A DNA stretch of 52,330 nucleotides from a virus (taxonomy: Duplodnaviria > Caudoviricetes). The position numbers and the translations under genes were made by a program. The notes under the pieces were generated by a model. That model had not been told where the DNA came from and ran no database searches. It was given only the letters and a program-made list of their open reading frames with translations. This document shows, in pieces, positions 3,240-43,738 of this stretch (within the stretch, counting starts at the first letter, position 1; each line of letters starts with the position of its first letter). Where the stretch lies: positions 1-52,330 of IMG/VR virus record IMGVR_UViG_3300030385_001830; one strand, 5' to 3'.

Positions 3240-3782
3240 ATGAATTTTGAAGGGAATTTTAAGGTTCTACAAGAAAACGCTGAGGTGGCGGCTTTGGCAG
3301 AATTCTGTAACGGAATAACTCCCGAACAATGGGATGTATGGGACCATCGACAGAACACATTTGGCGCACACAGGGACACAAAAACATTTCCTCTTGTGTG
3401 GAGTAGTTTAGACACTATCACCTTACCTACTGTCTTAATGAATGTTGATTCTTTAGCCGCGAAATTAGTGCAGCCATTTATTGCATTCCTTGAGAATCTT
3501 TATAGCGGGATTGTGTACAAGGCGATGCTCACACTATTACCTGATGGGGGCAAAATTATTCCTCATGCAGATAGGGGGGTAGGTCTTTTAACTATCCACA
3601 GGTGTCACCTCGTAGTAACCGCAGAAACTGGAACTGACTTTATGGTGGGTGATGTAAATAAGTATTTTGCTCCCGGCACTTTGTTTGAGTTTAACAACTC
3701 CCGTGTGCATTCTGTAACAAATAATTCGGAGGCAGATAGAGTTCATTTAATAATAGATATTCTACCAATGGCACTTAGCTGA
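3240..3782 (+). CDS. Aspartyl/asparaginyl beta-hydroxylase-like 2OG-Fe(II) oxygenase
   Basis: HAD...H facial triad (IIPHADRG; RVHSVTN) and C-terminal RVHLIID. Confidence 0.8.
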   Translation: MNFEGNFKVLQENAEVAALAEFCNGITPEQWDVWDHRQNTFGAHRDTKTFPLVWSSLDTITLPTVLMNVDSLAAKLVQPFIAFLENLYSGIVYKAMLTLLPDGGKIIPHADRGVGLLTIHRCHLVVTAETGTDFMVGDVNKYFAPGTLFEFNNSRVHSVTNNSEADRVHLIIDILPMALS

Positions 3783-4015
3783 TGACTATACCTTCTAGTG
3801 TCTATCCTTGGCGCGACCGCGTTGTTAGGTCTTCCCCCTTCTCCCGCGTGTTAAGATCATCTCGCAGGGAGAGGTTAGCTACGTGTAAGGAATGCCCCCG
3901 ATATATTAAGGCGGTTAAGGTGTGTGAAGAATGTGGATGTTTTATACCAGCTAAAACTTGGTTTAAAGGGCAAAGCTGCCCCCTTGGTAAATGGAAAGAA
4001 ATTGAATTTGACTAA
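3782..4015 (+). CDS. Small Cys-rich metal-binding protein (DUF6171-like)
   Basis: RLATCKECP...CEECGCF...CPLGKW. Confidence 0.65.
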   Translation: MTIPSSVYPWRDRVVRSSPFSRVLRSSRRERLATCKECPRYIKAVKVCEECGCFIPAKTWFKGQSCPLGKWKEIEFD

Positions 4016-4640
4016 TGAATGGTATTTTTTTACTGAGGCGCTAAACAAAGAAACTTGCAACCGAATAATAAAATTAGGAGACAAGGGCTTTGAAAAAGCT
4101 ACAATAGAAAAAAGTAATGGGGGAGCTACCGCCCAAGAAAGAATAGAGGGTAAAAAACCCGAAGAAGAATTAAATAAAAATATTAGAACAAGTGATATTG
4201 CGTGGGTAGCGGATCAATGGGTATATGACTTAATATGGCCCTACATGGTCACAGCAAACGAACAAGCGGGTTGGAAATATGACATCAAAGCCGCTGAAAC
4301 AATCCAGATAACTCGTTACAAAAAAGGCGGCTTCTACGGATTTCACAAGGACGGAAGAAGTGACAATTTATCTGCTTATAATCGGCCCGACCATTCTTTC
4401 CTACACGGAAATGTTAGAAAATTGAGCATGAGTATCCTCTTAAATGATGATTACGAAGGAGGGGATTTTGAGTTCACCACGTTAAACCCAGAAGGGAAAA
4501 GCGTAATGAAAGCATCCGATTTGTATAAGGCAGGTTCTATTATAGTGTTTCCTTCTTTTATGATGCACGGAGTTAAACCAATAACTAGAGGAGTTAGAGA
4601 CTCACTTGTTGCATGGTTTATAGGGCCACCGTTTAAATGA
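4002..4640 (+). CDS. PKHD-type / prolyl-hydroxylase-like 2OG-Fe(II) oxygenase
   Basis: FHKD, RKLSMSILLNDDYEGGDF and IVFPSFMMHGVKP..RDSLVAW motifs; probable TTG start at 4002 (track ORF begins at 3924). Confidence 0.85.
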   Translation: MNLTNEWYFFTEALNKETCNRIIKLGDKGFEKATIEKSNGGATAQERIEGKKPEEELNKNIRTSDIAWVADQWVYDLIWPYMVTANEQAGWKYDIKAAETIQITRYKKGGFYGFHKDGRSDNLSAYNRPDHSFLHGNVRKLSMSILLNDDYEGGDFEFTTLNPEGKSVMKASDLYKAGSIIVFPSFMMHGVKPITRGVRDSLVAWFIGPPFK

Positions 4641-23026: not shown

Positions 23027-24550
23027 ATGACATTAGAAGAAGAATTTAATAGCCTTTTTAAAGGCAGTGATATTGCTCATGGCACGTATGTTGTTAATGG
23101 CAGTAGGGACAGTGATGGAAAAAAGCAGGGAACTGCTAAGGTTATAAGAGAACCACCGTCTCCTGAGCTTTGGGGAAAGCACCTGAAAGGGGGAACAGGC
23201 TTAGGGATAATTCCTATCCGGAGTGATAACACTTGTCAGTGGGGAGCCATTGACATTGATGAATATGACATTGAACACAAAATACTGGTTCAAACTTTAA
23301 GATCCAATAAAATTCCTGCCGTAGTAGGTAGAACAAAAAGCGGTGGGGCGCATGTATGGATATTTTTAACAGAGCCAGTAGATGCTGCGGACATGCAAGG
23401 GAGACTGACCGAATTAGCGGCTGCGTTAGGATATTCTGGTAGTGAGATTTTTCCCAAGCAAACTACCATTCTTCTTGATAGAGGAGATACGGGCAACTTT
23501 TTAAACATGCCTTATCATGCAGCCAAGAACAGTACGCGCTATGCGTTTGATGATGAAGGAAATGGTTTAACAGCCACACAGTTTATTGAGTATGTTCGCC
23601 CTTTTATTTCCACTCCTTCCATTTTTAATAAGTTAGACTTTAGTTTTGGTATAAAAAAGCAAAAACACTTAAAGCAGGGGCCTCCTTGCTTGCAGCATTT
23701 ATGCGTTCAAGGCTTTGCAGAAGGGTCACGCAACAATGCCCTTTTTAATTTAGGGGTTTATGCTCGTCTTTCTGATATTGAAAATTGGGAAACCTTAGTA
23801 CAACGATACAATATTGACTACCTGCACCCGCCATTAAATCATGGTGAGGTAGGAACAATCATTAAACAACTCAACAAGAAAGAATATTTCTACAAATGTG
23901 AAGACCAACCCATTAAACCCTTCTGTAATAAAGAGGTATGTAAAAGTCGTAAATTTGGAGTAGGGCTTGGTACATTAGGAAGTGACCTAAGTAGCTTAAC
24001 CAAAATTGATGGAGATCCTCCCATTTGGATTTTAAATGTAGACGGTAACAGGGTAGAACTTTCTACCACCGGATTAACTTCTCAAACACAGTTTCAGAAA
24101 GAATGTGTAAGTCAGATAAATAAATTTCCATTAACAGTTGCTCAACGGGCATGGCAGGTTAGAATACAAACACTGTTGGATACTTTAACAGTGGTTGAGG
24201 TTCCACCAGACGCCACATTCAAAGGAGAATTTGAAGAATTAATGTATGCCTTTGCAGCAGAAAGAGCCAAAGGTGAAGAAAAAGAAGATATTTTACAGGG
24301 AATTGCAGTATGGATAGATGAACGGGTGTACTTTCAAGTTAAAGATTTGAAGAAGCACTTAACAGTTAATGATTTTAACCACTACACATCCAACAAAATT
24401 ACATTAAGATTACAAGACATAGGTGCAGAAAAAATGTTTTGGAGAACAAGAGGAAAAGGGGTACATGTGTGGTCTTTGCCACAGTCCTATTTTTCCGAAT
24501 CTGAAATTGAAATACCACTTCCACCAATCCCCCAAAAAGAAATTCTTTAA
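23027..24550 (+). CDS. AEP-superfamily primase with PriCT-like domain
   Basis: WGAIDID, RTKSGGAH and GNFLNMPY AEP motifs; PPC..EGSRNNALF. Confidence 0.85.
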   Translation: MTLEEEFNSLFKGSDIAHGTYVVNGSRDSDGKKQGTAKVIREPPSPELWGKHLKGGTGLGIIPIRSDNTCQWGAIDIDEYDIEHKILVQTLRSNKIPAVVGRTKSGGAHVWIFLTEPVDAADMQGRLTELAAALGYSGSEIFPKQTTILLDRGDTGNFLNMPYHAAKNSTRYAFDDEGNGLTATQFIEYVRPFISTPSIFNKLDFSFGIKKQKHLKQGPPCLQHLCVQGFAEGSRNNALFNLGVYARLSDIENWETLVQRYNIDYLHPPLNHGEVGTIIKQLNKKEYFYKCEDQPIKPFCNKEVCKSRKFGVGLGTLGSDLSSLTKIDGDPPIWILNVDGNRVELSTTGLTSQTQFQKECVSQINKFPLTVAQRAWQVRIQTLLDTLTVVEVPPDATFKGEFEELMYAFAAERAKGEEKEDILQGIAVWIDERVYFQVKDLKKHLTVNDFNHYTSNKITLRLQDIGAEKMFWRTRGKGVHVWSLPQSYFSESEIEIPLPPIPQKEIL

Positions 24551-26070
24551 TGAACATTGTATTGGGGCCTCCAGGAACCGGAAAAACCACTAAGCTACTA
24601 TCCCTTGTAGAATTCTATTTGAATAAAGGGGTGGCCCCCGATAGAATTGGGTATTTTGCCTTTACCCGCCGCGCAGCTAATGAAGCGGTAGAAAGAGCAT
24701 GTTCTCAATTTTATTTATCAAAGAAAGACCTACCCTATTTTCGTACTCTTCACAGCTTGGCTTTTGTACAAGGAGGACTCAACCACAGCCAAATAATGAC
24801 GGATTCCAAATATCAGGAAGTAGCAGACTGGTTAAAAATAGGTAGTTTTTATATTAACCATAATGCTAATGATCAAGGGCCATATAAAGATTCTGGATAT
24901 GGGGATAAGTTTTTAGAAATCATAAATATTGCCAAAATTTTACAGCAGCCATTACGAAAAATTTATAAGGAAAGCATCGTTCCTCTTAAAACAGATTGGG
25001 CTAGAGTAGAATATGTAAGCAAAGGATTAGAACAGTGGAAAAAAACCCATCACCTTTTTGATTTTACAGACATGTTAGAATATTTCAATAAAAATAATTT
25101 AGCCCCCAAATTAGAAGTTTTATTTATAGATGAAGCCCAAGATTTAAGCCCCATCCAATGGGAAATGGTAAGGTTATTAGAAAATAATAGCCAAGAATGT
25201 TATATAGCAGGAGATGATGATCAAGCAATCTTCCGTTATGCAGGGGCAGATGTACAACAATTTATAAACTTAGAGGGGGAAGTGACCCTTTTAAACCAAA
25301 GTTATCGAATCCCAGCAATGCACCATGAATTATCTACCAGAGTTATTAGCCGAGTTAAAGGCCGCAGGAAAAAAGAATTTTCTCCAAGAAACGAAAAGGG
25401 AGGAATTTATTGGCATAGCCATTCCGAAGAGGTAGATATTTCAGAAGGAGACTGGCTCTTGTTGAGCAGAACAACCAGAGGAGCCAAACAAATAGAGGAA
25501 GAGGTACGTAGAAGGGGACATCTTTACAGTTACCGTAGTTCTAAAAGTATCGACTCCAAAGTTTTAGAGGCAGTGCGGTTATGGGAATTTTTGTTAGAGG
25601 GTGAAAGTATCACAGCAGAAAAAGTACGGTTGGTTTACCAACAGATGCTTTCTCGATCACAAATTGCGTATGGGCAAAAAGGAATGCCCCAAGGTCTAGA
25701 GGGCCAGTTTTATTCACTAGGAGACTTAAAACGGGATCACGGGTTATTACATACTTTGCCGTGGGACACAGGGTTAGGAAAAATTAGTGAACGAGACAGA
25801 ACCTATATCATAGCCTGTTTACGCAAGGGAGAATCTCTAAATACAGAACCCCGTATACGGATTTCAACTATACATTCTGCTAAAGGAGCTCAGGCAACAA
25901 ATGTTATGTTACTAACAGACACCATGAAAAGACCTTACTCCATGTGGCGTAAGCCAGATCATTATGAGGATGACGAAGCAAGAGTATTCTATGTTGGTTT
26001 AACGCGAGCATTTGAAAATTTACATTTAGTACATCCCATGTATAGTCAAGGTTATAGCTTACCTTACTAG
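24550..26070 (+). CDS. UvrD/Rep-family SF1 helicase
   Basis: GPPGTGKT, IDEAQD, GDDDQAIF, STIHSAKG and YVGLTRA motifs. Confidence 0.92.
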   Translation: MNIVLGPPGTGKTTKLLSLVEFYLNKGVAPDRIGYFAFTRRAANEAVERACSQFYLSKKDLPYFRTLHSLAFVQGGLNHSQIMTDSKYQEVADWLKIGSFYINHNANDQGPYKDSGYGDKFLEIINIAKILQQPLRKIYKESIVPLKTDWARVEYVSKGLEQWKKTHHLFDFTDMLEYFNKNNLAPKLEVLFIDEAQDLSPIQWEMVRLLENNSQECYIAGDDDQAIFRYAGADVQQFINLEGEVTLLNQSYRIPAMHHELSTRVISRVKGRRKKEFSPRNEKGGIYWHSHSEEVDISEGDWLLLSRTTRGAKQIEEEVRRRGHLYSYRSSKSIDSKVLEAVRLWEFLLEGESITAEKVRLVYQQMLSRSQIAYGQKGMPQGLEGQFYSLGDLKRDHGLLHTLPWDTGLGKISERDRTYIIACLRKGESLNTEPRIRISTIHSAKGAQATNVMLLTDTMKRPYSMWRKPDHYEDDEARVFYVGLTRAFENLHLVHPMYSQGYSLPY

Positions 26071-26137
26071 CTATGTGAAAAATAAAATGGCATACTTTTA
26101 TATGGTAATAAATTGTTCTCACAGAAAGGAGAAATAG

Positions 26138-27208
26138 ATGGCTATTAGACCAAAAGGTTTTAACGGAAAACCTCCTGTAAAACCAGGAGATATTCAGAAG
26201 TTAGAAGTAACAAAAGAATTTTATAGGTGGATAGTAGAACGCCATGAAATCTATCGTCGCCGACTAGACGGTTATCCTTATCCATGGACAGAAGACCCTG
26301 TCTTAAATCGCTACAAATTCACTAACCCCTTTAGAGAAAATGATGCAGACACTATATGGATGCGTGATTATTTTAGGCCTGACATTTTAAACAAAAAAAT
26401 CGGTTTTGCTGATATCAACCATAATATAGTTAATGCCGCATTGTTTAGAATGATAGGCACCCCCGAATTTGCACAAGAGTTTTTAGAGCAGCATAGGTGG
26501 ATAACTAAAATTAATTACAACCCCGAGTTAATTAAAAAAATAATAAAAGACCGGCTGGCTGCAAAGAAAAAATGCTTCACGGGTGCATATATTGTTACTA
26601 ACCAAGGGATTAAAGCACCCAAGGCTGATGTGGTAATAGATGAATTTATCACACCACTGGCTAAGACACTTCAATACCCTTACACACTTCCCATAGAAGG
26701 CGCAATTTTCAATAGACCTGTTTTAGATTGCATGGAAGATTTACATTCCCTATTGAAAAAGTTTAAAGGGTTTGGGGGTGGAGGTTTTATGGCCTACGAG
26801 GTAGTTACTGATGTAGCTAACATGCCTTTTTATAATCCACTAACAATGAAAATGCGCCATCCTGCCAAGTATATTAGTGACAGGTACCGTTGGGCTAATG
26901 CAGGTCCCGGAGCCATACGAGGATTAAACCGTATATATGATTTTCCTTATAAAGCACGTATGCCGCAAAAAGACGCTAACCTTAGAATGCGAGAAATCAT
27001 AGGGCATAAGTACCTAGCGCATCAATTAGCCGAAGAAAAGGGTTATGACCCAATAGAATTTAAAGACATAGACATGCGCTGCATAGAACACAGCTTATGT
27101 GAATTTGATAAGTATTGCCGAGTTTGTTACAAACAAGGCAAACCCCGTTCTGTTTGTAAATATGACCAAGGGGAAATTTATCCTATTAAGGAAGGCCCAG
27201 TTAAATGA
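26138..27208 (+). CDS. 5-hmdU DNA kinase helical-domain (aGPT-Pplase1-like) DNA base-modification protein
   Basis: ERHEIYRRR...PWTEDPVLNRYKFTNPFRE, GFGGGGFMAYEVVTD, GPGAIRGL and IEHSLCEFDKY motifs. Confidence 0.8.
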   Translation: MAIRPKGFNGKPPVKPGDIQKLEVTKEFYRWIVERHEIYRRRLDGYPYPWTEDPVLNRYKFTNPFRENDADTIWMRDYFRPDILNKKIGFADINHNIVNAALFRMIGTPEFAQEFLEQHRWITKINYNPELIKKIIKDRLAAKKKCFTGAYIVTNQGIKAPKADVVIDEFITPLAKTLQYPYTLPIEGAIFNRPVLDCMEDLHSLLKKFKGFGGGGFMAYEVVTDVANMPFYNPLTMKMRHPAKYISDRYRWANAGPGAIRGLNRIYDFPYKARMPQKDANLRMREIIGHKYLAHQLAEEKGYDPIEFKDIDMRCIEHSLCEFDKYCRVCYKQGKPRSVCKYDQGEIYPIKEGPVK

Positions 27209-28548
27209 AAATATTAATGACGCTTTACCAAATACAAGATTATGGTGGGATAATTAACCACCTTGAAAATCTTACACATGGGTTCAGGCGTAATGGTCAT
27301 CAAGTGGATGTGGTTATGTTATGCCCTAAGCATAAGATAACTAACGTAAAATCTAAACGGGACGATTGGCAAGTTAATCCCGAGGGCACAGGTTATAAAT
27401 TTAACCAAGCTAGAGGATGGACAGGGTTGCCTAAAGTACCCTACCTAAATGCAGCCGCTCGAGAAGCCTTCAGAGACCGCTGCGAGGAATATGATGGGGT
27501 GTTGTGGCATATACCTGTGCCTACCTTAAACAAGGAAAATAAGGGGGTCTCAGAGTGGGTAGAGTTATACAGCTCACGAGCTAAGAACTTTGCTATTCTT
27601 CATGATGGTAACTTCCCTAAGCTGTACCCTCACTTAAACCATGTCAAACATTATTTTAAAGGGTTGATATGTGTACATGAGGCAGCTTACAATGCAGCAG
27701 CCGCTATTGACCTAAAACGTATACTAATTGTTAATCCCTTTGACCTACACACATGGCGTAGAAACCCTGAAGGCTTTGCGCCGTTGAATTTTAATGAAAG
27801 AAATGGGTTTACTTCAGTACAAATATTCAAAGCATGGAAAAGGGTAGACGAATTAATACGCGCTATTCCTTTAATGAACAGCACTCAACACAAACGTATT
27901 GGGGGAGCGGGAATTGAGTACCGCTATATGACAAGCAAGGATAAGTGCAAACCTAAATATTATAACGAACAGGGAGAAAAAATTTGGGATGCAGCTTTAA
28001 AAAGAGGGATGCTGTATTTGGGAACTATCCCAAACTCTAGTGTGTATGCCCATTTAATGCAATCTAAATTACAGATAGACCCAAGCTGGTCTCACAAGTA
28101 TGCAGCCTACGGAGCTCACTTTAACCGCACAACCGTAGAAGCCATGATATGTGGTGCAGTCCCTATGGCAACTGACCTAGGAATGATAGACAGTAAAATA
28201 TTTAAACCAGATATTAACTATGTACAAATTCCCCACGATACCACTCCCAATTATTACGCTGCCCTACTTGACCATTGTTTAAGTGAAGATTATAAGGTGC
28301 AGTGGGAAACAATACGCCAGAACAACTTAGAGTTAATACCAAGGTTTGATTTACAAACAGTGGCGGGTGCTTATGGATATGTTATTCAATGGTCAAATTT
28401 TGCTGATCGAACCACAAACCAATATAGTGCTGAAAAAGGTGAGTTAAGTGACGAAGTAAGGGAAGCATCTAAGAAAAACCTAAAGTTCTTTGGGATAACC
28501 ACAACCGATAATTATAAGGAAAGTTTGGATTTATTTAGGACACACTAA
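27205..28548 (+). CDS. GT-B glycosyltransferase, probably DNA-modifying
   Basis: N-terminal YGGIINHLENL..G..RNGHQV, WKRVDELIRA and C-terminal FNRTTVEAMICGAVP (GT-B donor-binding motif). Confidence 0.75.
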   Translation: MKILMTLYQIQDYGGIINHLENLTHGFRRNGHQVDVVMLCPKHKITNVKSKRDDWQVNPEGTGYKFNQARGWTGLPKVPYLNAAAREAFRDRCEEYDGVLWHIPVPTLNKENKGVSEWVELYSSRAKNFAILHDGNFPKLYPHLNHVKHYFKGLICVHEAAYNAAAAIDLKRILIVNPFDLHTWRRNPEGFAPLNFNERNGFTSVQIFKAWKRVDELIRAIPLMNSTQHKRIGGAGIEYRYMTSKDKCKPKYYNEQGEKIWDAALKRGMLYLGTIPNSSVYAHLMQSKLQIDPSWSHKYAAYGAHFNRTTVEAMICGAVPMATDLGMIDSKIFKPDINYVQIPHDTTPNYYAALLDHCLSEDYKVQWETIRQNNLELIPRFDLQTVAGAYGYVIQWSNFADRTTNQYSAEKGELSDEVREASKKNLKFFGITTTDNYKESLDLFRTH

Positions 28549-29534
28549 TGTATACGTTTACCGCCAGAGGGCCAAGTGAGGGATTATTCCTTGTTAAACA
28601 AGCACTAGAAGAGGTAGGAAAACCCATTGTTACACGCAATGGCGCAGCTTTAGAATTTGTTTCCCCCGTTTTAATTCACTATACTCACCCTAAAGAAAGA
28701 GTACTTTTTTACAAAGAAAGAGACGCTAATCCTTTTTTCCATTTAATGGAAGCCTTATGGATGTTAGCAGGACGCAGGGATGTAAAGTTTGTAAACAACT
28801 TTAATGGACGCATTAAAGACTATTCTGATGACGGTGAAATTTTTCACGGGGCTTATGGATACAGATGGCGCAACTGGTTTAAAAAAGACCAACTAGACGT
28901 AGCAGTAGAGAGATTATCAAAGTGGCCTCATGACAGAAGGACAGTAGTGTCCATGTGGGATGCTAATACTGACTTAATAAAAACCAATGAACACAAAGAC
29001 TTACCCTGTAATACCGCCATTTTTTTCAAACAAAGAAACAACAAGCTAGACATAACAGTTACTAACCGTAGCAATGACCTTATATGGGGTACCTTTGGAG
29101 CCAACATGGTTCACATGTCTATTTTACAAGAATATATGGCAGCAAGATTAGGGTGTGAAGTAGGGAGCTATTACCATTTTACCAATAACCTTCATGCTTA
29201 TGAAGATGTGCTGGCAAAAATTAAGCACATAAAACCTGAATATGACCCTTACCTTACGCTAGGAAAAGATGGTCTTTCTTATAAGCCCCCTTCTTTTGTA
29301 GAGGCACCTGATTATTTTGATAAAGAGTTACAACAATGGTTTAAGGATAGAGACCGAACCCTTTTTGCCAATGAGTACTTATTTAGAACATGCAGCATGG
29401 TAAGGTCAGCGTGGAAATGTTTTAAAGAAGATAATTTAAAAGGGGCGTTTAGTTTTGCAGAGGAAATTAGTGACCGAGCATGGCAAAAAGCCTGTATTGA
29501 ATGGCTAACAAGGAGGGAGATAAAAAAGAGATGA
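28548..29534 (+). CDS. Thymidylate synthase homologue, likely dUMP hydroxymethylase
   Basis: GAYGYRWR, DLPCN catalytic Cys, RSNDLIWG..GAN (Asn at the specificity position points to dUMP) and NNLHAYE. Confidence 0.8.
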   Translation: MYTFTARGPSEGLFLVKQALEEVGKPIVTRNGAALEFVSPVLIHYTHPKERVLFYKERDANPFFHLMEALWMLAGRRDVKFVNNFNGRIKDYSDDGEIFHGAYGYRWRNWFKKDQLDVAVERLSKWPHDRRTVVSMWDANTDLIKTNEHKDLPCNTAIFFKQRNNKLDITVTNRSNDLIWGTFGANMVHMSILQEYMAARLGCEVGSYYHFTNNLHAYEDVLAKIKHIKPEYDPYLTLGKDGLSYKPPSFVEAPDYFDKELQQWFKDRDRTLFANEYLFRTCSMVRSAWKCFKEDNLKGAFSFAEEISDRAWQKACIEWLTRREIKKR

Positions 29535-29869
29535 GCGAAATAAAGGTAAAAAAACTAAATCTAAGTAACCAACTTCAGAAGGCAGAATCTATTGCTTTAG
29601 CTGATATCCTTGCTTTAAATGCAGCGGAAGCCAACTATGGGGATAGTTGGAAAAAGCGTGGAGGTGTGGGTGCCTTTATGATGTTAGCCCGCAAGTGGGA
29701 CAGAATAGAAAACCAAGTTTCACCACGTCGCCGCAATAAAAATTATCCCACCTATGATATATTTCAAGCTCTCACTACCGATGATAGAGATGAGGGTATC
29801 TTAGATGATGTTAGGGATTTAAGAAGATACTTACTGCTAGTAGAATCTGAGGTATATGTGGGTGAATAA
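29531..29869 (+). CDS. Nucleotide-modification-associated (Nmad1 / MazG-like) protein
   Basis: YGDSWKKRGGVGAFMMLARKWDRIEN...DLRRYLLL; likely ATG at 29531. Confidence 0.65.
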   Translation: MSEIKVKKLNLSNQLQKAESIALADILALNAAEANYGDSWKKRGGVGAFMMLARKWDRIENQVSPRRRNKNYPTYDIFQALTTDDRDEGILDDVRDLRRYLLLVESEVYVGE

Positions 29870-30023
29870 AAAAGAAATGGATAAAGAAGTATTAGCTGTT
29901 TGTAAATGTGGAAAAGAATACAAAGCAATTTCTTTTCGCACTATAAAGAATAAATGGCCTCAGTGTGAGTGCAAACAACCCATGATAATTAAACCCAATT
30001 CCCCCTTACCACATAAAATTTAA
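29862..30023 (+). CDS. Small Zn-ribbon protein, 53 aa (not in ORF track)
   Basis: CKCG...CECKQPM; fills the gap between two coupled genes. Confidence 0.5.
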   Translation: MNKKEMDKEVLAVCKCGKEYKAISFRTIKNKWPQCECKQPMIIKPNSPLPHKI

Positions 30024-31877
30024 ATGCAAATTCCTCTGATCCAACCTCAAACTGAGTGGGTAATGCCGGACAGGTATCCGGAACTCGATAACTATGCAGA
30101 AATAGCAATTGACCTAGAAACCAAAGACCCAAACCTAACCACCTCTGGATCTGGTTGGGCACGAAAAGATGGACATGTAATTGGGATCGCCGTAGCCGTA
30201 GAAGGGGACAGTTGGTACTTTCCTATACGGCATGAAATTGGCCCTAACTTTGACGTTGCCATAACCTTTAAATGGTTAAAAGATATAGTGTCCAAAGATA
30301 GAGACTACATTTTCCATAATGCCCAATATGATGTGGGGTGGTTATTGACAGAAGGAATTTCTGTAAAGGGCCGAATTATAGATACTCTAGTGTGCGCCCC
30401 TCTTTTAGATGAAAACAGATTTTCTTATTCTCTTGATGCTTTAAGCAGGGACTACTTACAAGAGCGGAAATCTGAACGCTTACTACGCGAAGCAGCCGCA
30501 ACTTTTGGCGTAAATGCTAAAAGTGAAATGTATAAACTTCCTGCTCAACACGTAGGAACCTACGCAGAGCAAGATGCAGAATTGACATTGCGTCTGTGGC
30601 AACAGTTTAAAGCTCTAATTATTAAAGAAGATATAGGGGATATTTTTAAGTTAGAAACCAAGGTCTTACGCACCATTATCCCAATGAGAGAGAGGGGGGT
30701 TAGGGTAGATTTAGAAAAAGCAGAACGCATAAAGAAAGTTTTCCAAAAACGAGAGACGAGTTTACTCAAACAAATAAAAAAGGAATCAGGAATTGGAGTA
30801 GAAATCTGGGCTGCTGAAAGTGTCGCCAAGGTTTTTGAAGCATTAGGCTTACCTTACAGCAAGACCAAAAAAACAGAAGCTCCCAGTTTCACAAAGAATT
30901 TTTTAGCTAACCACCCTCACCCTGTAGCTCAGATGGTTGTCCAAGCTAGAGAATTTAATAAAGCCCGAACCACGTTTGTAGATTCTTTCTTAAAACATCA
31001 AGTAAATGGCAGAATCCATGCAGAACTTCACCCACTCCGTAGTGGATTAGGCGGTACGGTGACTGGACGATTCAGCTATAGTAATCCTAATTTACAACAA
31101 ATTCCAGCAAAGCATGTAGAAATTGGCCCTATGATAAGGAGCCTTTTTATACCAGAAGAAGGTTGTAAATGGGGTGTGTTTGATTATAGTAGTCAAGAGC
31201 CACGCATAGTTGTTCACTATGCCAAGCTAATGAATTTTAAGGGGGCAGAGGATTTTGCAGATCGGTATAAGCTAGATGCCCGCACTGATTTTCACCAACT
31301 AGCGGCAGATATTGTGGGAGTTTCACGTAAACATGCCAAAGATATTAACTTGGGATTATTTTATGGGATGGGAAGTAGAAAACTAGCAGAAACGCTAGGG
31401 CTAGAACTAGAAGAAGCGAAGGAACTATTTGCTATTTATCACTCTAAAGTCCCCTTTGTTAAACAACTGGCAGACTACACCACTAATCGTGCAGCAAGCA
31501 AGGGGACAATTCGTACTTTATTAGGAAGGCGATGCCGCTTTGATAAATGGGAACCAAGCCGATACGGAACCTGGAAACCATTATCTTACCAAGAAGCCTT
31601 TGCGGAACACGGCCCTGCTATTAAGCGAGCGTTCACTTACAAAGCTCTCAATAAATTGGTGCAGGGTTCAGCGGCTGACCAAACAAAAGCTGCGATGGTA
31701 GCGTTACATGAAGAAGGTATCTTACCGATGATTCAGGTGCATGATGAATTAGATATCTCAATTGAAAGCGAGAAACAGAAACAACACATAATAGAAGTTA
31801 TGGAGGAATGTGTAAAACTAGAAGTGCCAAGTGTAGTAGATGCAGAGATAGGACCAAATTGGGGAGAGGTGATATGA
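30024..31877 (+). CDS. polA: Family A DNA polymerase (3'-5' exonuclease plus polymerase)
   Basis: IDLET, HNAQYD and YAEQDA exonuclease motifs; DYSSQEPR (A), RKHAKDINLGLFYG (B) and QVHDE (C). Confidence 0.95.
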   Translation: MQIPLIQPQTEWVMPDRYPELDNYAEIAIDLETKDPNLTTSGSGWARKDGHVIGIAVAVEGDSWYFPIRHEIGPNFDVAITFKWLKDIVSKDRDYIFHNAQYDVGWLLTEGISVKGRIIDTLVCAPLLDENRFSYSLDALSRDYLQERKSERLLREAAATFGVNAKSEMYKLPAQHVGTYAEQDAELTLRLWQQFKALIIKEDIGDIFKLETKVLRTIIPMRERGVRVDLEKAERIKKVFQKRETSLLKQIKKESGIGVEIWAAESVAKVFEALGLPYSKTKKTEAPSFTKNFLANHPHPVAQMVVQAREFNKARTTFVDSFLKHQVNGRIHAELHPLRSGLGGTVTGRFSYSNPNLQQIPAKHVEIGPMIRSLFIPEEGCKWGVFDYSSQEPRIVVHYAKLMNFKGAEDFADRYKLDARTDFHQLAADIVGVSRKHAKDINLGLFYGMGSRKLAETLGLELEEAKELFAIYHSKVPFVKQLADYTTNRAASKGTIRTLLGRRCRFDKWEPSRYGTWKPLSYQEAFAEHGPAIKRAFTYKALNKLVQGSAADQTKAAMVALHEEGILPMIQVHDELDISIESEKQKQHIIEVMEECVKLEVPSVVDAEIGPNWGEVI

Positions 31878-32269
31878 TCATTGGACTAACTGCTTCTGCT
31901 TTTGACATGCTTCATGTGGGACATGTGGCTATGTTAGAAGATGCTAAAAAACATTGTGACCATCTCATTTGTTGTTTACATGTTGACCCCTCTGTTGAGA
32001 GACCGGAGAAAAACCCTCCTCTCCAATCTTTAGTAGAAAGGTATATACAGTTACAAGCTGTCTGTTATGTGGACGAAATCATTCCCTACGAGAGAGAAAA
32101 AGATTTACAAGATATAATTGAACTTAAAACTCCTGATGTAAGAATAATCGGAGAGGAATATAAATTTAAAGAGTTTACCGGAAAAGGGTTGTGTCCTGTA
32201 ATTCATTACAATAAAAGGAGACACAGGTTTTCTAGCACAGAAATGAGAATAAGGATGAATAGAACATGA
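31874..32269 (+). CDS. Cytidylyltransferase (TagD / glycerol-3-phosphate CTase-like)
   Basis: FDMLHVGH (HxGH) and RRHRFSST motifs; ATG at 31874 overlaps the polA stop. Confidence 0.85.
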   Translation: MIIGLTASAFDMLHVGHVAMLEDAKKHCDHLICCLHVDPSVERPEKNPPLQSLVERYIQLQAVCYVDEIIPYEREKDLQDIIELKTPDVRIIGEEYKFKEFTGKGLCPVIHYNKRRHRFSSTEMRIRMNRT

Positions 32270-33156: not shown

Positions 33157-33188
33157 TAATAAAACACACTCACAGAAAGGAGTTTTTT

Positions 33189-33941: not shown

Positions 33942-33973
33942 TCCTTCTTATAAACCACAGAAAGGGGGTTAAG

Positions 33974-41695: not shown

Positions 41696-41832
41696 TCGTG
41701 TCTACTCGCCTCTAGTCGTGTCCCTTCGTATCTTGTCAACTCCCCGTGGATCATGGACGATGGTCATTGATCGATTACGATCGCCATGGATCGCCATGGA
41801 TCGCCATGGATCTTGGCCGATCGCCCACGATC
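41696..41832 (+). repeat. Phased TC array (5-bp period) running into a GATC array (10-bp period)
   Basis: TC every 5 bp from 41696 to 41741 (ten copies); GATC at 41749 and every 10 bp from 41769 to 41829 (GATG at 41759). Confidence 0.95.
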
Positions 41833-41848
41833 GGTTAACCGTGGGCAT

Positions 41849-41883
41849 AAAAAAGTCCCGCTTGCTAAACTAACAAGCGAGAC
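41849..41883 (-). terminator. Rho-independent terminator of 41906-42496
   Basis: GUCUCGCUUG/CAAGCGGGAC stem followed by U6 on the minus strand. Confidence 0.7.
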
Positions 41884-41905
41884 CGTGTAGTGGCAAAATA
41901 GTCAG

Positions 41906-42496
41906 TTAGGCTTTAGAAGCCATAACGGTTATAGGTTTAACGACCAATTGCACCAAGGACTTGCCGTAGAAAAACTTGCTACGATCCTTTGTGGTATTGG
42001 TCCCGTTTAGCAACATGAGAAGCGTATTGCCATCCCCAATTGTTGCTGTGGACTCTGCTACTTTACCACCAGTAGCTTTGATGGCTACATTTATGTGGTT
42101 GAGTCTACGGCTGGCGGTTTTGCCACCTGCGACTGGTTCCCACTTGAGCTTATCAAATGCTTTGCTCTTGTTGCTGGGTATACCGTCTTTAGGTAGCTGG
42201 ACTCCAAATAGCCAGCAGCGTAACTGATTAGCACGAGTTGTAGTGCTAGCTGCGAACATACCCGCAATCTTAGCGGTATTGGCCCAATTTTCAGCAGTAA
42301 TACCTAGTGAGTCAAACAGTGGTGTAGTTTCTACCACCACATTGGCTTGAAGGTCTGCTGCATTGTCTTTAACAAATTTTGCTACACAAGAACCGCTGAC
42401 CAATTTGTTGCCATTGGTTGCGAAATTCAGGGTAGCCCCGTCGGTAAGGTTTAGAGCCTTTACCAGAGGCTTGGCGGTTACTTTCTGTTTAACCAT
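41906..42496 (-). CDS. Unknown protein, paralogue A
   Basis: 196 aa; promoter TTGTGG-17-TAGTAT upstream; shares GMFA, TGGKV, GNTLxMLLxGTNT and VQLVVKP with 43127-43738. Confidence 0.75.
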   Translation of the reverse strand: MVKQKVTAKPLVKALNLTDGATLNFATNGNKLVSGSCVAKFVKDNAADLQANVVVETTPLFDSLGITAENWANTAKIAGMFAASTTTRANQLRCWLFGVQLPKDGIPSNKSKAFDKLKWEPVAGGKTASRRLNHINVAIKATGGKVAESTATIGDGNTLLMLLNGTNTTKDRSKFFYGKSLVQLVVKPITVMASKA

Positions 42497-42688
42497 AGTC
42501 GTGTACCTTATGTTTGACTATTTTTGCCACTACAAATTCATACTAACATGTACCACATCGTACCACAACAACTGATTACCTAATTACCGAGCGGTTCCCC
42601 CAAGATTGAGACCCAAAATTGAGACGCCGAACTAAGATGGAGGGAGTAGGAGTGACTATACATGTATCTATATATGTTACTTATGGTT

Positions 42689-42732
42689 GATCGTGGCCGA
42701 TCTTGGCCGATCGCCATGGATCATGGGCGATC
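42689..42732 (+). repeat. Second GATC array (10-bp period, 5 copies)
   Basis: GATC at 42689, 42699, 42709, 42719 and 42729; units GATCTTGGCC, GATCGCCATG and GATCATGG are shared with the first array. Confidence 0.95.
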
Positions 42733-42847
42733 TAGGGTGTTGCCTCTTTCCCCCTATCCCCTCTATTGTATCTAGTGCTGTAGGTTGGATAGTCGTTGTG
42801 CCATACTACAATTGTAGCAACTAACCCCAAAAAGGGAGACCCAAAAT

Positions 42848-42946
42848 ATGAGACAGCTCCTCTATTATACTCTGTTATCACTCGCGTTTATTACGCTCGC
42901 TATTAGCTCCGCCATCATCTGGTGGTTGGTAGCACCATGGGTATAG
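42848..42946 (+). CDS. 32-aa single-transmembrane peptide (not in ORF track)
   Basis: Promoter palindrome at 42802-42818, AGGGAG RBS; MRQLLYYTLLSLAFITLAISSAIIWWLVAPWV. Confidence 0.5.
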   Translation: MRQLLYYTLLSLAFITLAISSAIIWWLVAPWV

Positions 42947-43126
42947 CAATAGCTTTTTATATAGTGCTAATACTACTGTATATATAGCCAGTACAATATA
43001 CTGTATAAAATAACAGTATAAATATACCATTGTTTAACACAAAAGTGTTGTGTTTAGCATTTACCTGTGCCTATAATGCTTTATTGGCTTGCAATAAAGC
43101 GGGTCAATAAACACAGGTATAAAACC

Positions 43127-43738
43127 ATGCAAAAAGTAAATACACAAAAAGCAATTACAGCCGGTATAGCTAACCTTAACAGCAATGCCATTTATACATT
43201 ACCTGCTAGTGGTTTAGCTAATGGTGCAAACATTGCAACCTATGCAACTAATAACTGCAATAATAAACTTAGCCAAATAGCCGTGGTAATAACACCATTT
43301 GGTAAGGGTTTAATAAAAGGGTTACCCGTACCCGCTAATGGTTTAAGTGGTAACGCTGCTATTAATGCTTACATGCTGGCGTTTAAAAACTTAAACAATG
43401 GCATGTTTGCGGTTGGCAGCACGGTACGTTGTTACCAGTTTTTGTGTTACATGTTAGGTGTTGTGCCTAACAGTAGCAAAAACAATAAAAGTAAAAAGTG
43501 GGCTAATTTACAGGCTGCTAATGCTTTGGGTACATTAGGTGGTAACAATGCTAGTAGTAGCTTAGGGCATATTGGCACAGTGGTTGGGCACACTGGCGGT
43601 AAAGTTACCAGTGGCAACATTGCCAATGGCAACACACTTGCTATGTTGCTAAGTGGCACCAACACTATTAAAAGCCCGCAACATGCTTTTTTTAAAAAGC
43701 CCATTGTGCAACTGGTAGTTAAGCCTAACCTTAAGTAA
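43127..43738 (+). CDS. Unknown protein, paralogue B (no Asp or Glu)
   Basis: Perfect TATAAT at 43072-43077, CAGGT before ATG 43127, 203 aa, homologous to 41906-42496. Confidence 0.75.
   Translation: MQKVNTQKAITAGIANLNSNAIYTLPASGLANGANIATYATNNCNNKLSQIAVVITPFGKGLIKGLPVPANGLSGNAAINAYMLAFKNLNNGMFAVGSTVRCYQFLCYMLGVVPNSSKNNKSKKWANLQAANALGTLGGNNASSSLGHIGTVVGHTGGKVTSGNIANGNTLAMLLSGTNTIKSPQHAFFKKPIVQLVVKPNLK

What the first reader, a model, noticed from the sequence alone, without database searches (positions are those of the whole stretch)
26138..29869. Thymidine hypermodification cluster with an unusual enzyme set
Seen: a TS homologue with RSND and Asn at the specificity position, an aGPT-Pplase1/HMUDK-helical protein, a GT-B glycosyltransferase and an Nmad1/MazG-like protein. 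All four are translationally coupled between UvrD and PolA and have their own CACAGAAAGGAG leader. Established: phages such as ViI, M6 and phiW-14 make 5-hmdU DNA, phosphorylate it and transfer amines or amino acids in a context-dependent way. Here I see no P-loop kinase motif and no amino acid:DNA transferase, but a glycosyltransferase is present. Inference: a sugar- or polyol-phosphate-modified hmdU, possibly a new base.
Basis: partly seen in the sequence, partly recalled or inferred. Interest (0 to 1): 0.78.

Follow-up and report, generated by a model that had tools for sequence, protein, structure and literature searches.

The report
Kinase-less thymidine glycosylation cassette in marine phage
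A marine phage carries a tightly coupled gene set that most likely swaps thymine for hydroxymethyluracil and then adds a sugar to it, using a variant of a known DNA-hypermodification pathway whose chemistry nobody has measured.

Summary
The genes are real and coupled (26138-30023, running on into polA). Three of the four family calls hold:
- ORF A is a full-length HMUDK_hel / aGPT-Pplase clade 1 protein.
- ORF B is a GT4-like GT-B glycosyltransferase by fold.
- ORF C is a TS homologue with the full 5-hmdUMP-synthase signature.

ORF D is 'MazG/Nmad1-like' only as a weak lead. A fifth small Cys-rich ORF (E) was missed.

No 5-hmdU DNA kinase or ADDT is found in this record. The kinase is also absent from all 50 related records searched, 12 of them at least 90% complete.

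The window is an HTVC023P-type marine phage. In relatives, the slot between Pplase1 and TS holds either this GT-B, a distant GT-B, or a TET-associated DNA glycosyltransferase (TAGT). That argues the GT acts on 5-hmdU DNA.

Pplase1 keeps an invariant Cys that aligns with the catalytic Cys of the solved amino acid:DNA transferase. Its step is unknown.

The cassette is widespread. It was already noted in print at annotation level, and first readers of this scan flagged it in seven other genomes. I rate it a new variant of a known kind, chemistry untested.

The parts
26120..26131 (+). Shared leader / ribosome-binding motif CACAGAAAGGAG, 6 nt upstream of the ORF A start
   Evidence: There are 4 matches at <=1 mismatch in the window against 0.27 expected. 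The motif also precedes the gene starts at 33189 and 33974, so it is not specific to this cluster.
26138..27208 (+). ORF A, 356 aa: aGPT-Pplase clade 1 (Pfam HMUDK_hel). HhH-glycosylase-like fold with an invariant Cys321 in IEHSLCEFDKY
   Evidence: PF18723 E 1.6e-39. 32% identical to M6 gp55. Model pLDDT 86.6. Best solved match is PaMx11 gp46/PUGT, 8z2m, Z 10.1. C321 and E322 are kept in 41 of 41 relatives.
27205..28548 (+). ORF B, 447 aa: GT4-like GT-B glycosyltransferase; predicted to glycosylate 5-hmdU DNA
   Evidence: Foldseek matches HepE, PimA, BshA and MshA at E 1e-13 to 1e-11, and T4 alpha-glucosyltransferase with DNA (1y6f) at E 4.9e-11. It sits in the slot that holds TAGT in relatives. 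All 43 of 43 GT loci carry the TS.
28548..29534 (+). ORF C, 328 aa: thymidylate-synthase homologue; predicted dUMP hydroxymethylase (5-hmdUMP synthase)
   Evidence: PF00303 E 1.1e-22. Cys154; Asp151 at the ThyA L143 position; Asp177 at D169; Asn186 at N177 (signature taken from PMC13326640). Falls in a clade with SPO1-like gp29 and M6 gp58, 100/100 support, apart from T4-like td.
29531..29869 (+). ORF D, 112 aa from the likelier start (122 aa from 29501): conserved protein of unknown family, possibly an all-alpha NTP-pyrophosphatase-like (Nmad1/MazG) fold
   Evidence: No HMM hit. ESM Atlas: a cluster in which 25% of members carry DUF1599 scores 0.93; structure TM 0.54/0.63 to a DUF1599 cluster and 0.48/0.50 to MazG-like. 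Present in 66 of 80 and 42 of 43 related loci. Start site.
29856..30023 (+). ORF E, 55 aa: small Cys-rich (CxC...CxC) protein just upstream of polA
   Evidence: No Pfam or PHROG hit. Conserved in 43 of 80 and 41 of 43 related loci.
30024..31877 (+). DNA polymerase A, the replicase that must accept the modified dNTP; same coupled gene chain
   Evidence: PF00476 E 4.7e-63. 50-55% identical to HTVC023P-type pelagiphage polymerases.
31874..32269 (+). Cytidylyltransferase-like nucleotidyltransferase (RfaE domain II / TagD-like); possible supplier of an activated donor
   Evidence: PF01467 E 2e-14. TIGR02199 E 2.3e-18 and TIGR01518 E 9e-14, both below cut-off. ATGA overlap with the polA stop. Present in 15 of 43 GT-B loci and in 5 of 80 Pplase1 loci.

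Best explanation
This is the DNA-modification cassette of an HTVC023P-type marine phage, inserted between the helicase and polA.

Step 1 (inferred from active-site signature and phylogeny): the TS homologue makes 5-hydroxymethyl-dUMP from dUMP. After phosphorylation by host or unidentified kinases, PolA puts 5-hmdU in place of thymidine.

Step 2 (inferred from fold and from what occupies the same slot in relatives): the GT4-like GT-B enzyme transfers a sugar from an NDP-sugar to the 5-hydroxymethyl group on the DNA polymer. The product would be a glycosyl-5-hmdU. If the GT4 retaining mechanism holds, it would be an alpha-linked, base-J-like nucleoside.

Step 3 (role open): the clade-1 aGPT-Pplase is a DNA-binding, base-flipping HhH-fold enzyme. 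It has an invariant Cys equivalent to the nucleophile of the amino acid:DNA transferases. It acts on the same 5-hmdU DNA without the usual 5-hmdU DNA kinase. It may install a second substituent or further process part of the sites.

ORF D (possibly a MazG-like pyrophosphatase acting on the dNTP pool), ORF E and the cytidylyltransferase (possible donor supply) are accessory.
For: TS homologue is a hydroxymethylase.
- Asp at the ThyA L143 position, Asp kept at D169 and Asn at N177, in this protein and in 74 of 74 lineage homologues. This matches the hydroxymethylase, non-5-hydroxylase, dUMP signature described in PMC13326640.
- 40-43% identity to SPO1-like and M6-like enzymes, against 24-26% to T4-type td.
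- A 100/100 clade with those enzymes, apart from two bona fide TS.
- The closest solved relative is the CMP hydroxymethylase MilA.

GT acts on DNA.
- GT-B fold with GT4 neighbours, plus T4 alpha-glucosyltransferase bound to DNA.
- All 43 IMG/VR loci with this GT carry the TS; 42 carry Pplase1; 41 have the order Pplase1-GT-TS.
- Slot contents in 71 related loci: TAGT in 30, plus L038's singleton ORF; this GT-B in 16; a distant GT-B in 11 (hhalign prob 78.5%, E 1.7e-5). No locus has both TAGT and this GT-B.
- TAGT is above Pfam's cut-off in 20 of 50 records and in 0 of the 14 records that carry GT-B.

No kinase, no clade-2 transferase.
- for this record.
- PF18748 in 0 of 50 related records, 12 of them >=90% complete. 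Positive controls: M6 and L064.
- The only ADDT-like signals (6 of 50 records, sub-threshold) that I mapped, 2 of the 6, fall inside the Pplase1 gene itself.

Pplase1 is probably an enzyme.
- C321 and E322 kept in 41 of 41 relatives.
- Best solved match is the AADT PUGT, Z 10.1.
- Profile-profile alignment puts IEHSLC on vETvLC, the Glu243/Cys247 needed for DNA binding and proposed catalysis in PMC11472151. Mutation of these residues abolished activity in PMC8989533.
- SP10, reported to make alpha-glutamylthymidine (abstract of PMC5889632, listing and passages), has a clade-1 domain fused to its kinase and no ADDT hit.

The cassette is an accessory insert: HTVC023P and 023Pt_psg01 lack it between helicase and polA.
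Against: - No chemistry was measured. Every enzymatic step is inferred.
- The GT reaches no Pfam GT cut-off and its model is only moderate (pLDDT 68.9).
- The GT has no match among 50,697 deposited phage records, so no cultured example exists.
- In 2 of 43 loci the GT lies about 6.8 kb from Pplase1.
- Seven of 71 loci have Pplase1-TS-D with no recognised slot enzyme, although one of these (L038) has a TAGT-like ORF. Pplase1 therefore does something that needs no GT.
- The Pplase1/AADT link is weak by sequence: hhalign prob 6.7%, E 0.0054; Foldseek found nothing below E 0.086. Z around 10 is within the background range the tool gives for helical folds.
- A hydroxyl is a poor leaving group, so AADT-like chemistry without a kinase is unexplained.
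- The record is about 89% complete, so a gene could be missing.
- M6 gp55 (clade 1) was dispensable in vitro (PMC8989533).
Confidence: 0.55

Rival explanations
1. Two-step 'linker then sugar' pathway. Pplase1 is the primary group transferase. It attaches a hydroxyl-bearing metabolite (amino acid, polyol or polyol-phosphate) to the 5-methylene of hmdU, without a dedicated kinase or with an unrecognised activation. The GT then glycosylates that substituent, not hmdU itself. The cytidylyltransferase would supply a CDP/ADP-activated donor.
For: - Pplase1 is the constant element and the slot enzymes vary. This mirrors AADT plus variable tailoring enzymes in M6, PaMx11 and ViI (PMC8989533).
- The Cys is invariant.
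- Clade 1 is SP10's only Pplase-family domain.
- Radical-SAM and FkbM methyltransferase genes share the slot in relatives.
- RP13, a cultured phage, has Pplase1 without a kinase, about 3 kb from a myo-inositol-1-phosphate synthase gene.
- The cytidylyltransferase is coupled to polA here.
Against: - No activating kinase is present.
- TAGT-family enzymes are described as acting directly on hydroxymethylpyrimidines (bioRxiv 10.1101/2023.12.21.572611). The simpler acceptor is therefore hmdU itself.
- The cytidylyltransferase is present in only 15 of 43 GT loci.
- SP-15, YerA41 and Carin-5, the phages with measured linker-plus-sugar thymidines, have no PF18723 match (0 of 3).
Confidence: 0.2
2. The GT is not a DNA enzyme. 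It would modify a host envelope glycan or a phage protein, as an auxiliary metabolic gene. The DNA would carry only 5-hmdU or the unknown Pplase1 product.
For: - Its nearest structural neighbours act on lipids, small molecules and polysaccharides.
- JGI names some homologues 'glycosyltransferase involved in cell wall biosynthesis'.
- In 2 of 43 loci it sits away from Pplase1/TS.
Against: - It is translationally coupled on both sides to Pplase1 and TS.
- It co-occurs with TS in 43 of 43 loci.
- It is mutually exclusive with TAGT in the same slot.
- Even when displaced, it stays inside the replication module.
Confidence: 0.1
3. Canonical kinase/AADT pathway, with the missing genes lying in the unsequenced ~11% of the genome or too diverged to detect.
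For: - The record is linear and about 89% complete.
- PF18748 missed the Ackermannviridae phage SH-Ab 15599, so the model's sensitivity is incomplete.
Against: - 0 of 12 related records at >=90% completeness have PF18748.
- No separate ADDT gene is evident. Matches occur in 2 of those 12 records, and in the 2 of 6 matches I mapped they lie inside the Pplase1 gene.
- In known systems these genes cluster with Pplase1 and TS.
- The only Walker A in a real gene is UvrD's.
Confidence: 0.05
4. The TS homologue is an ordinary dTMP synthase. The cluster is plain nucleotide metabolism and the DNA is unmodified.
For: PHROG and GenBank annotations call relatives 'thymidylate synthase'.
Against: - All NCBIfam TS equivalog scores are far below cut-off.
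- Asp replaces the water-excluding Leu143.
- The clade is separate from td-type TS, 100/100 support.
- It is constantly linked with Pplase1 and DNA glycosyltransferase families.
Confidence: 0.05

Closest known systems
Thymidine hypermodification pathways of phages M6, PaMx11, ViI, PhiW-14 and SP10 (Lee et al. 2018, PMC5889632; Lee et al. 2021, PMC8989533)
   Same: - A TS-like dUMP hydroxymethylase, 42% identical to M6 gp58.
- A clade-1 aGPT-Pplase, 32% identical to M6 gp55.
- A PolA 36% identical to M6 gp62, in a similar gene order.
   Different: - No 5-hmdU DNA kinase, no clade-2 amino acid:DNA transferase, and no PLP, radical-SAM or FAD tailoring enzyme in this record.
- A glycosyltransferase occupies their place.
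HTVC023P-type pelagiphage 'DNA hypermodification partner AMGs' (mSystems 2022, PMC9599517)
   Same: - Same phage group: PolA is 50-55% identical to HTVC023P, HTVC027P and 023Pt_psg01.
- The paper reports TS plus aGPT-Pplase1 next to PolA, with a glucosyltransferase and a 5'-deoxynucleotidase nearby in some genomes.
   Different: - That paper stops at annotation and phylogeny. It names no product and does not discuss the missing kinase/AADT.
- This window lacks the HD nucleotidase and has a cytidylyltransferase instead.
Phage DNA glycosyltransferases: T4 alpha-glucosyltransferase, phage TAGT/GT-B enzymes on 5hmC, and kinetoplastid base J glucosyltransferase (bioRxiv 10.1101/2023.12.21.572611)
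   Same: - GT-B fold, with a structural match to T4 AGT bound to DNA.
- Association of GT-B enzymes with ThyS homologues in viromes is described there.
- The slot is shared with TAGT.
   Different: - The predicted acceptor is 5-hmdU, not 5hmC.
- The sequence family is GT4-like, with no detectable similarity to any deposited phage genome.
- It is always accompanied by a clade-1 Pplase.
PaMx11 gp46 / PUGT, the solved 5-PmdU glycinyltransferase (8z2m; PMC11472151)
   Same: - Best structural match to ORF A: Z 10.1, rmsd 4.0, 219 residues.
- The E-x3-C motif aligns.
   Different: - 9% identity. The ADDT Pfam model does not match ORF A.
- PUGT needs a phosphorylated substrate made by a kinase, which is absent here.
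Ralstonia phage RP13 (SP15-like polymerase group; PMC13697223)
   Same: A cultured phage with a clade-1 Pplase (PF18723 E 1.7e-48) and no PF18748 kinase. The paper notes the same absence.
   Different: - A 171-kb phage of another lineage.
- No homologue of this GT was seen in deposited phages.
- Its modified base is also unknown.

Membership tests
Thymidylate synthase superfamily, dUMP hydroxymethylase (5-hmdUMP synthase) branch | Pfam Thymidylat_synt match above the gathering score | tested here: met
   80.9 bits against a cut-off of 24.3.
Thymidylate synthase superfamily, dUMP hydroxymethylase (5-hmdUMP synthase) branch | Catalytic Cys (ThyA C146) and Asn at N177 (uracil rather than cytosine) | tested here: met
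   C154 and N186 are invariant in alignment A9. RSND...N is present in 74 of 74 lineage homologues.
Thymidylate synthase superfamily, dUMP hydroxymethylase (5-hmdUMP synthase) branch | Acidic residue in place of ThyA L143 (hydroxymethyl versus methyl product), with Asp kept at D169 (Asn there marks 5-hydroxylases). Criteria from PMC13326640. | tested here: met
   D151 lies within D-x-P-C-N in 74 of 74 homologues. D177 is kept.
Thymidylate synthase superfamily, dUMP hydroxymethylase (5-hmdUMP synthase) branch | Groups with enzymes of phages known to carry hmdU-derived bases, apart from true TS | tested here: met
   A 100/100 split separates T4-like td and JBP901 TS from the clade holding SPO1-like gp29, M6 gp58 and the window. 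The tree has 25 rows: 18 of 74 lineage sequences chosen by me plus 7 references. Only two TS outgroups were used.
Thymidylate synthase superfamily, dUMP hydroxymethylase (5-hmdUMP synthase) branch | Product is 5-hmdUMP | not testable with these tools
   Needs an enzyme assay or in vivo nucleotide LC-MS.
aGPT-Pplase clade 1 (Pfam HMUDK_hel, PF18723) | Full-length Pfam match above the cut-off | tested here: met
   136.4 bits against a cut-off of 25; profile positions 2-278 of 281.
aGPT-Pplase clade 1 (Pfam HMUDK_hel, PF18723) | HhH DNA-glycosylase-like fold | tested here: met
   VIA-align: PUGT Z 10.1; DUF2419 Z 9.4; Mag1, EndoIII, AlkA and OGG Z 7-9. Foldseek was weak, E>=0.086.
aGPT-Pplase clade 1 (Pfam HMUDK_hel, PF18723) | Co-occurrence with a 5-hmdU DNA kinase, as in M6, ViI, PhiW-14 and SP10 | tested here: not met
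   PF18748 is absent from the record at E<=1 and from 0 of 50 related records. Controls were positive.
Amino acid:DNA transferase (ADDT, PF18724; clade 2) | Pfam ADDT match | tested here: not met
   No hit at E<=1 in the record. In 6 of 50 relatives there are sub-threshold hits; the two I mapped lie inside the Pplase1 gene itself.
Amino acid:DNA transferase (ADDT, PF18724; clade 2) | Catalytic Glu-x3-Cys pair | tested here: inconclusive
   E317-x3-C321 aligns with E243-x3-C247 in hhalign, but at prob 6.7%, E 0.0054. C321 is kept in 41 of 41 and E317 in 33 of 41.
5-hmdU DNA kinase (PF18748, P-loop) | P-loop kinase domain | tested here: not met
   Despite the Pfam name, ORF A is the helical non-kinase domain only.
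GT-B glycosyltransferase, GT4-like | Two-Rossmann GT-B fold | tested here: met
   Foldseek E 1.5e-13 to 1e-9 against many GT4 structures; TM 0.5-0.66. Model pLDDT 68.9.
GT-B glycosyltransferase, GT4-like | Pfam Glycos_transf_1 / Glyco_transf_4 above the cut-off | tested here: inconclusive
   20.1 and 20.0 bits, below cut-offs of 26.4 and 28.5. Many homologues carry precomputed PF00534/PF13692.
DNA-base glycosyltransferase (functional class) | Acts on hydroxymethylpyrimidine in DNA | not testable with these tools
   Indirect evidence only: the slot is shared with TAGT, there is a structural match to T4 AGT-DNA, and linkage to the TS is 43 of 43.
Nmad1 / DUF1599 / MazG-like all-alpha NTP pyrophosphatase (ORF D) | HMM match to DUF1599 or MazG | tested here: not met
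   (0 of 50 records). A PDB profile search gave nothing.
Nmad1 / DUF1599 / MazG-like all-alpha NTP pyrophosphatase (ORF D) | Structural or language-model likeness | tested here: inconclusive
   ESM Atlas: feature score 0.93 to a cluster in which 25% of members carry DUF1599; TM 0.54/0.63 to DUF1599, 0.48/0.50 to MazG-like, 0.44 to dUTPase_2.

The most novel reading that the evidence does not exclude
Clade-1 aGPT-Pplases are kinase-independent, Cys-dependent enzymes that work directly on 5-hmdU in newly replicated DNA. Some metagenomic proteins carry this domain on one predicted protein with PolA or primase-helicase domains. Together with interchangeable glycosyltransferases (TAGT, two GT-B families) they would generate a family of glycosylated thymidine derivatives not yet described. 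These would be bacterial-virus counterparts of base J, and common in ocean phages related to pelagiphage HTVC023P.
Probability: 0.3. Interest if true: 0.75.

Novelty: new variant of a known kind. Interest (0 to 1): 0.55.

Why it matters
If the prediction holds, an abundant group of marine phages carries glycosylated hydroxymethyluracil DNA made without the kinase/transferase pair that defines all characterised thymidine hypermodification routes.

That would matter in four ways:
- It would give the long-unassigned clade-1 aGPT-Pplase a testable role.
- It would add a new sugar-bearing thymidine to the list of natural DNA bases.
- It would bear on how well such phages are recovered by amplification-based viromics.
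- It would bear on how they evade restriction and CRISPR.

The interchangeable slot (TAGT, GT-B, radical SAM, methyltransferase) offers a natural set of enzymes for tailoring DNA in vitro.

Tried and rejected
**SP-15-type linker idea.** I asked whether Pplase1 is the enzyme behind SP-15-type 'linker plus sugar' thymidines. PF18723 is absent from SP-15, YerA41 and Carin-5 (0 of 3) and present only in RP13. I dropped the idea as a general link.

**Pplase1-GT complex.** Complex prediction on Pplase1 (A5) with the GT (A8) gave 'no answer' (score 0.00, mark 0.32). It counts neither for nor against binding.

**ORF D.** All of the following gave nothing usable, so 'MazG-like' stays a lead:
- Pfam at E<=10 on four homologues.
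- PDB profile searches with 4 and 41 sequences.
- PF07659 in this record and in 50 related records.

**ORF A by sequence against the PDB.** Nothing, alone or as a 41-row profile. Foldseek found nothing below E 0.086. Only the exhaustive VIA-align search ranked PUGT first.

**First hhalign, shallow profiles (A3 vs A4).** It aligned only the motif and was not significant.

**Nucleotide and GT-protein searches of deposited phages.** No match.

**Promoter/terminator scan.** No more sites than shuffled sequence (26 against 28.2 promoter-like). The TTTACA-16-TATAGT site at 26019-26046 is therefore only a candidate.

**Cytidylyltransferase-GT link.**
- GT-centred loci: 15 of 43 carry the cytidylyltransferase.
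- Pplase1-centred set: 3 of 20 GT-B loci and 2 of 60 others.
- Many loci are near-duplicates, so I do not claim an association.

**Papers not held or not seen.**
- Iyer et al. 2013 (the source of the names aGPT-Pplase and Nmad) is not held. What I say of it is recalled.
- Supplementary files of PMC9599517, PMC8989533 and the Pyle et al. preprint were not seen. Their figures and tables of gene neighbourhoods may already show this exact cassette.

**Searches behind 'not measured in print'.**

Full report
**What the window is.** The window is a whole IMG/VR virus record of 52,330 bp, linear, with CheckV completeness about 89%. Its PolA is 55% identical to phage 023Pt_psg01, 51.5% to Pelagibacter phage HTVC027P and 50.5% to HTVC023P. 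It also carries Pam3 gp32-34-like genes, an AEP primase and a UvrD helicase upstream of the cluster. It therefore belongs to the HTVC023P-type group of marine phages. No deposited phage shares DNA similarity over the cluster.

**The observation.** One search lists the four ORFs at the stated coordinates, and one search shows the junctions.
- A/B overlap as ATGA.
- B/C overlap as TAATG.
- C/D overlap as ATGA if D starts at 29531. That ATG follows AGGAGG; the ATG at 29501 has no ribosome-binding site.
- A fifth ORF, E (29856-30023, 55 aa, two CxC pairs), runs up to the polA start.
- polA overlaps a cytidylyltransferase-like gene (ATGA at 31874).
- That gene overlaps a GH108 endolysin (ATGA at 32266).

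The leader CACAGAAAGGAG is at 26120. It recurs before two other gene starts, with 4 matches at <=1 mismatch against 0.27 expected. It is a shared translation-initiation motif, not a mark of this cluster.

**ORF C, the TS homologue.**
- It matches PF00303 (E 1.1e-22) and phrog_5131 (E 2.3e-104). Every NCBIfam TS equivalog is far below its cut-off.
- Its closest solved relative is MilA, a CMP hydroxymethylase (E 5e-15).
- Against deposited phages it is 42-43% identical to M6-type enzymes, 40% to an SPO1-like enzyme, 33% to Ackermannviridae enzymes and 24-26% to T4-type td.
- A maximum-likelihood tree of 25 rows (18 of 74 lineage sequences chosen by me plus 7 references) separates T4-like td and a Bacillus phage TS from everything else with 100/100 support. 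The window lies in the clade with SPO1-like gp29 and M6 gp58. Only two TS outgroups were used, and several branches are long.

PMC13326640 (sections 24 and 28 read) gives active-site criteria in ThyA numbering:
- N177 marks dUMP; Asp there marks dCMP.
- L143 excludes water in methylases and is acidic in hydroxymethylases.
- D169N marks 5-hydroxylases.

The window has N186, D151 and D177 at these positions. All 74 lineage homologues have D-x-P-C-N and RSND...N. This is the signature of a 5-hmdUMP synthase.

**ORF A.**
- It is a full-length HMUDK_hel protein (PF18723, E 1.6e-39), 32% identical to M6 gp55 and to Orf49 of an Acinetobacter Ackermannviridae phage.
- In the literature this family is 'aGPT-Pplase clade 1'. 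It is not the kinase.
- The P-loop kinase is PF18748 and the characterised amino acid:DNA transferase (clade 2) is PF18724, as shown by scanning M6 gp54 and gp51.
- In M6, lysates with only the kinase gp54 and gp51 sufficed for glycine transfer, so gp55 was dispensable in vitro (PMC8989533, passages). The function of clade 1 is thus open.

A model built on 41 relatives is confident (pLDDT 86.6).
- Foldseek gave only weak HhH-glycosylase hits.
- An exhaustive structural search ranked the solved clade-2 enzyme PaMx11 gp46/PUGT first (Z 10.1, rmsd 4.0, 219 residues). The queuine-salvage enzyme DUF2419 and HhH DNA glycosylases followed (Z 7-9.4). The tool warns that such Z values can arise for helical folds.

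Sequence links to clade 2:
- Profile-profile comparison of 41 clade-1 and 38 clade-2 sequences gave one alignment (E 0.0054, probability 6.7%). It places IEHSLCE on vETvLCK.
- That is the Glu243/Cys247 pair of PUGT (PMC11472151). Alanine mutants of this pair were inactive in M6 gp51 and ViI gp247 (PMC8989533).
- The ADDT Pfam model gave sub-threshold matches in 6 of 50 related records. I mapped two by coordinates, and both fall inside the Pplase1 gene.
- Cys321 and Glu322 are invariant in 41 of 41 sequences; Glu317 is kept in 33 of 41.

SP10 gives a precedent.
- It is reported to carry alpha-glutamylthymidine.
- It has one PF18723 domain, fused behind its kinase in a 653-aa protein, with the E-x3-C-E motif.
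- It has no PF18724 match.

A clade-1 domain is therefore plausibly the transferase there. This step is my inference.

**ORF B.**
- It reaches no Pfam GT cut-off and has no relative in deposited phages.
- Its model (pLDDT 68.9, pTM 0.70) matches GT4-type GT-B enzymes: HepE at E 1.5e-13, then PimA, BshA and MshA. It also matches T4 alpha-glucosyltransferase bound to DNA (1y6f, E 4.9e-11; 1y8z).
- The family is common in marine metagenomes. 212 proteins score E<=1e-3; the best 120 are 40-98% identical, and the longest contig listed is about 83 kb.

**Comparative genomics.**

*GT-centred search.* It returned 43 IMG/VR loci.
- TS in 43, Pplase1 in 42 (the exception starts inside the GT), D in 42, E in 41, PolA in 41.
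- The order Pplase1-GT-TS holds in 41. In two loci the GT sits about 6.8 kb upstream, next to SNF2.

*Pplase1-centred search.* It found at least 556 loci, of which the best 80 were kept. By tblastn at 1e-4:
- TS 76, PolA 71, D 66, HD nucleotidase 53, E 43, this GT 20, cytidylyltransferase 5.
- M6-like kinase 2, AADT 0.

*The slot after Pplase1.* In the 71 loci holding both Pplase1 and PolA, the slot is variable:
- TAGT (PF20691) in 30, of which 17 also have a radical-SAM/SPASM gene. A further TAGT-like ORF is in L038.
- This GT-B in 16.
- A 348-aa family in 11, which hhalign links to this GT-B (probability 78.5%, E 1.7e-5 over 310 columns).
- An unassigned 353-aa family in 7.
- None of these families in 7. 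L038 is one of these seven.
- No locus has both TAGT and this GT-B.

*HMM checks.*
- TAGT is above its cut-off in 20 of 50 related records and in 0 of the 14 that carry GT-B. The window itself has no TAGT.
- PF18748 is found in 0 of 50 related records, 12 of them at least 90% complete.
- Controls: it hits M6 and L064 but misses an Ackermannviridae phage, so sensitivity is imperfect.

*The cassette is accessory.* HTVC023P and 023Pt_psg01 have only small ORFs between helicase and PolA.

**Reading.**
- A DNA-base glycosyltransferase family (TAGT) and two GT-B families replace one another in one slot, beside a 5-hmdUMP synthase. The simplest reading is that the GT glycosylates 5-hmdU in DNA.
- Pplase1 is the constant partner of the synthase and looks like an enzyme. 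With no kinase, the known chemistry (displacement of phosphate from 5-PmdU) cannot apply as described. Its step is therefore unknown.
- Seven of 71 loci have no recognised slot enzyme. This says Pplase1 has a function that needs no GT.
- Long metagenomic proteins carry PF18723 on the same predicted protein as PolA or primase/helicase domains. There are 9 hits, each a singleton. This hints at action at the replication fork, but they may be gene-calling artefacts.

**ORF D and the cytidylyltransferase.**
- ORF D is conserved but has no HMM family. The Atlas look-alikes (DUF1599, MazG-like, dUTPase_2) fit a dNTP-pool pyrophosphatase, but only as a lead.
- The cytidylyltransferase is RfaE-II/TagD-like, below equivalog cut-offs. 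It is present in 15 of 43 GT loci. It may supply a donor; I give this low weight.

**What is already known.**
- PMC9599517 reports TS plus aGPT-Pplase1 beside PolA in HTVC023P-type clades, with a glucosyltransferase and a deoxynucleotidase nearby in some (passages).
- The Pyle et al. preprint reports GT-A and GT-B contigs associated with ThyS in viromes (passages).
- PMC13697223 notes aGPT-Pplase1 without a detectable kinase in RP13 (passage). I confirmed this.
- In five literature searches I found no paper that measures a simple glycosyl-5-hmdU in a phage or assigns an activity to clade 1.
- First readers of this scan flagged the same cassette in seven other genomes. Some of those notes call ORF A's homologue a kinase, which the data here do not support.

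**Verdict.** The feature is real. It is well explained in outline as a kinase-less, glycosyltransferase-bearing variant of thymidine hypermodification. It is widespread and was partly anticipated in print. The product and the role of Pplase1 remain open.

Noticed in passing
window 3240-3782 and 3924-4640: Two adjacent oxygenase genes: an Asp/Asn beta-hydroxylase-like gene (PF05118, E 1.1e-12) and a 2OG-Fe(II) oxygenase (PF13640, E 3.7e-11). The pelagiphage paper describes such 2OG-Fe(II) genes as frequent in this phage group.
   Followed up: no
window 33171-33182, 33956-33967, 32236-32247: The leader CACAGAAAGGAG recurs (exact or with 1 mismatch) 6 nt before the starts at 33189 and 33974, and inside the end of the cytidylyltransferase gene before the endolysin start.
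   Followed up: partly
L013:8900-10984 and 16 similar loci: An alternative cassette in relatives: an NrdR-like zinc ribbon, TAGT and a radical-SAM/SPASM enzyme between Pplase1 and TS. Others carry an FkbM methyltransferase or a PD-(D/E)XK nuclease. This suggests several different thymidine derivatives within one phage group.
   Followed up: partly
L015:8890-9951 (7 loci): A 323-354 aa slot protein with no Pfam hit and no hhalign link to GT-B or TAGT. Function unknown.
   Followed up: partly
proteins P0121-P0129: Metagenomic proteins of 744-1765 aa that carry PF18723 together with PolA, DnaG-type zinc ribbon, Prim-Pol or AAA_25 helicase domains. One algal protein is named 'tRNA-Phe hydroxylase'. 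All are singletons.
   Followed up: no
L214 (Ralstonia phage RP13, record 87801-88775 and 91878-93158): The kinase-less Pplase1 (ORF120) lies about 3 kb from a myo-inositol-1-phosphate synthase gene and about 7 kb from a WbqC-family gene. This is another sugar/polyol context.
   Followed up: no
L008:3029-5088 (also L009): In two relatives a 2.1-kb insert lies between UvrD and Pplase1. It holds a DUF932 protein and two unknown ORFs.
   Followed up: no
window 23027-24550: The primase's best Pfam match is the AEP domain of the TOTE conflict system (PF22548, E 9.9e-20), together with PriCT_1.
   Followed up: no
window 41696-43738: Earlier first-reader notes report phased TC/GATC arrays and a TC/GA-poor island here. 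If the modification is context-dependent this could be related. I did not look.
   Followed up: no
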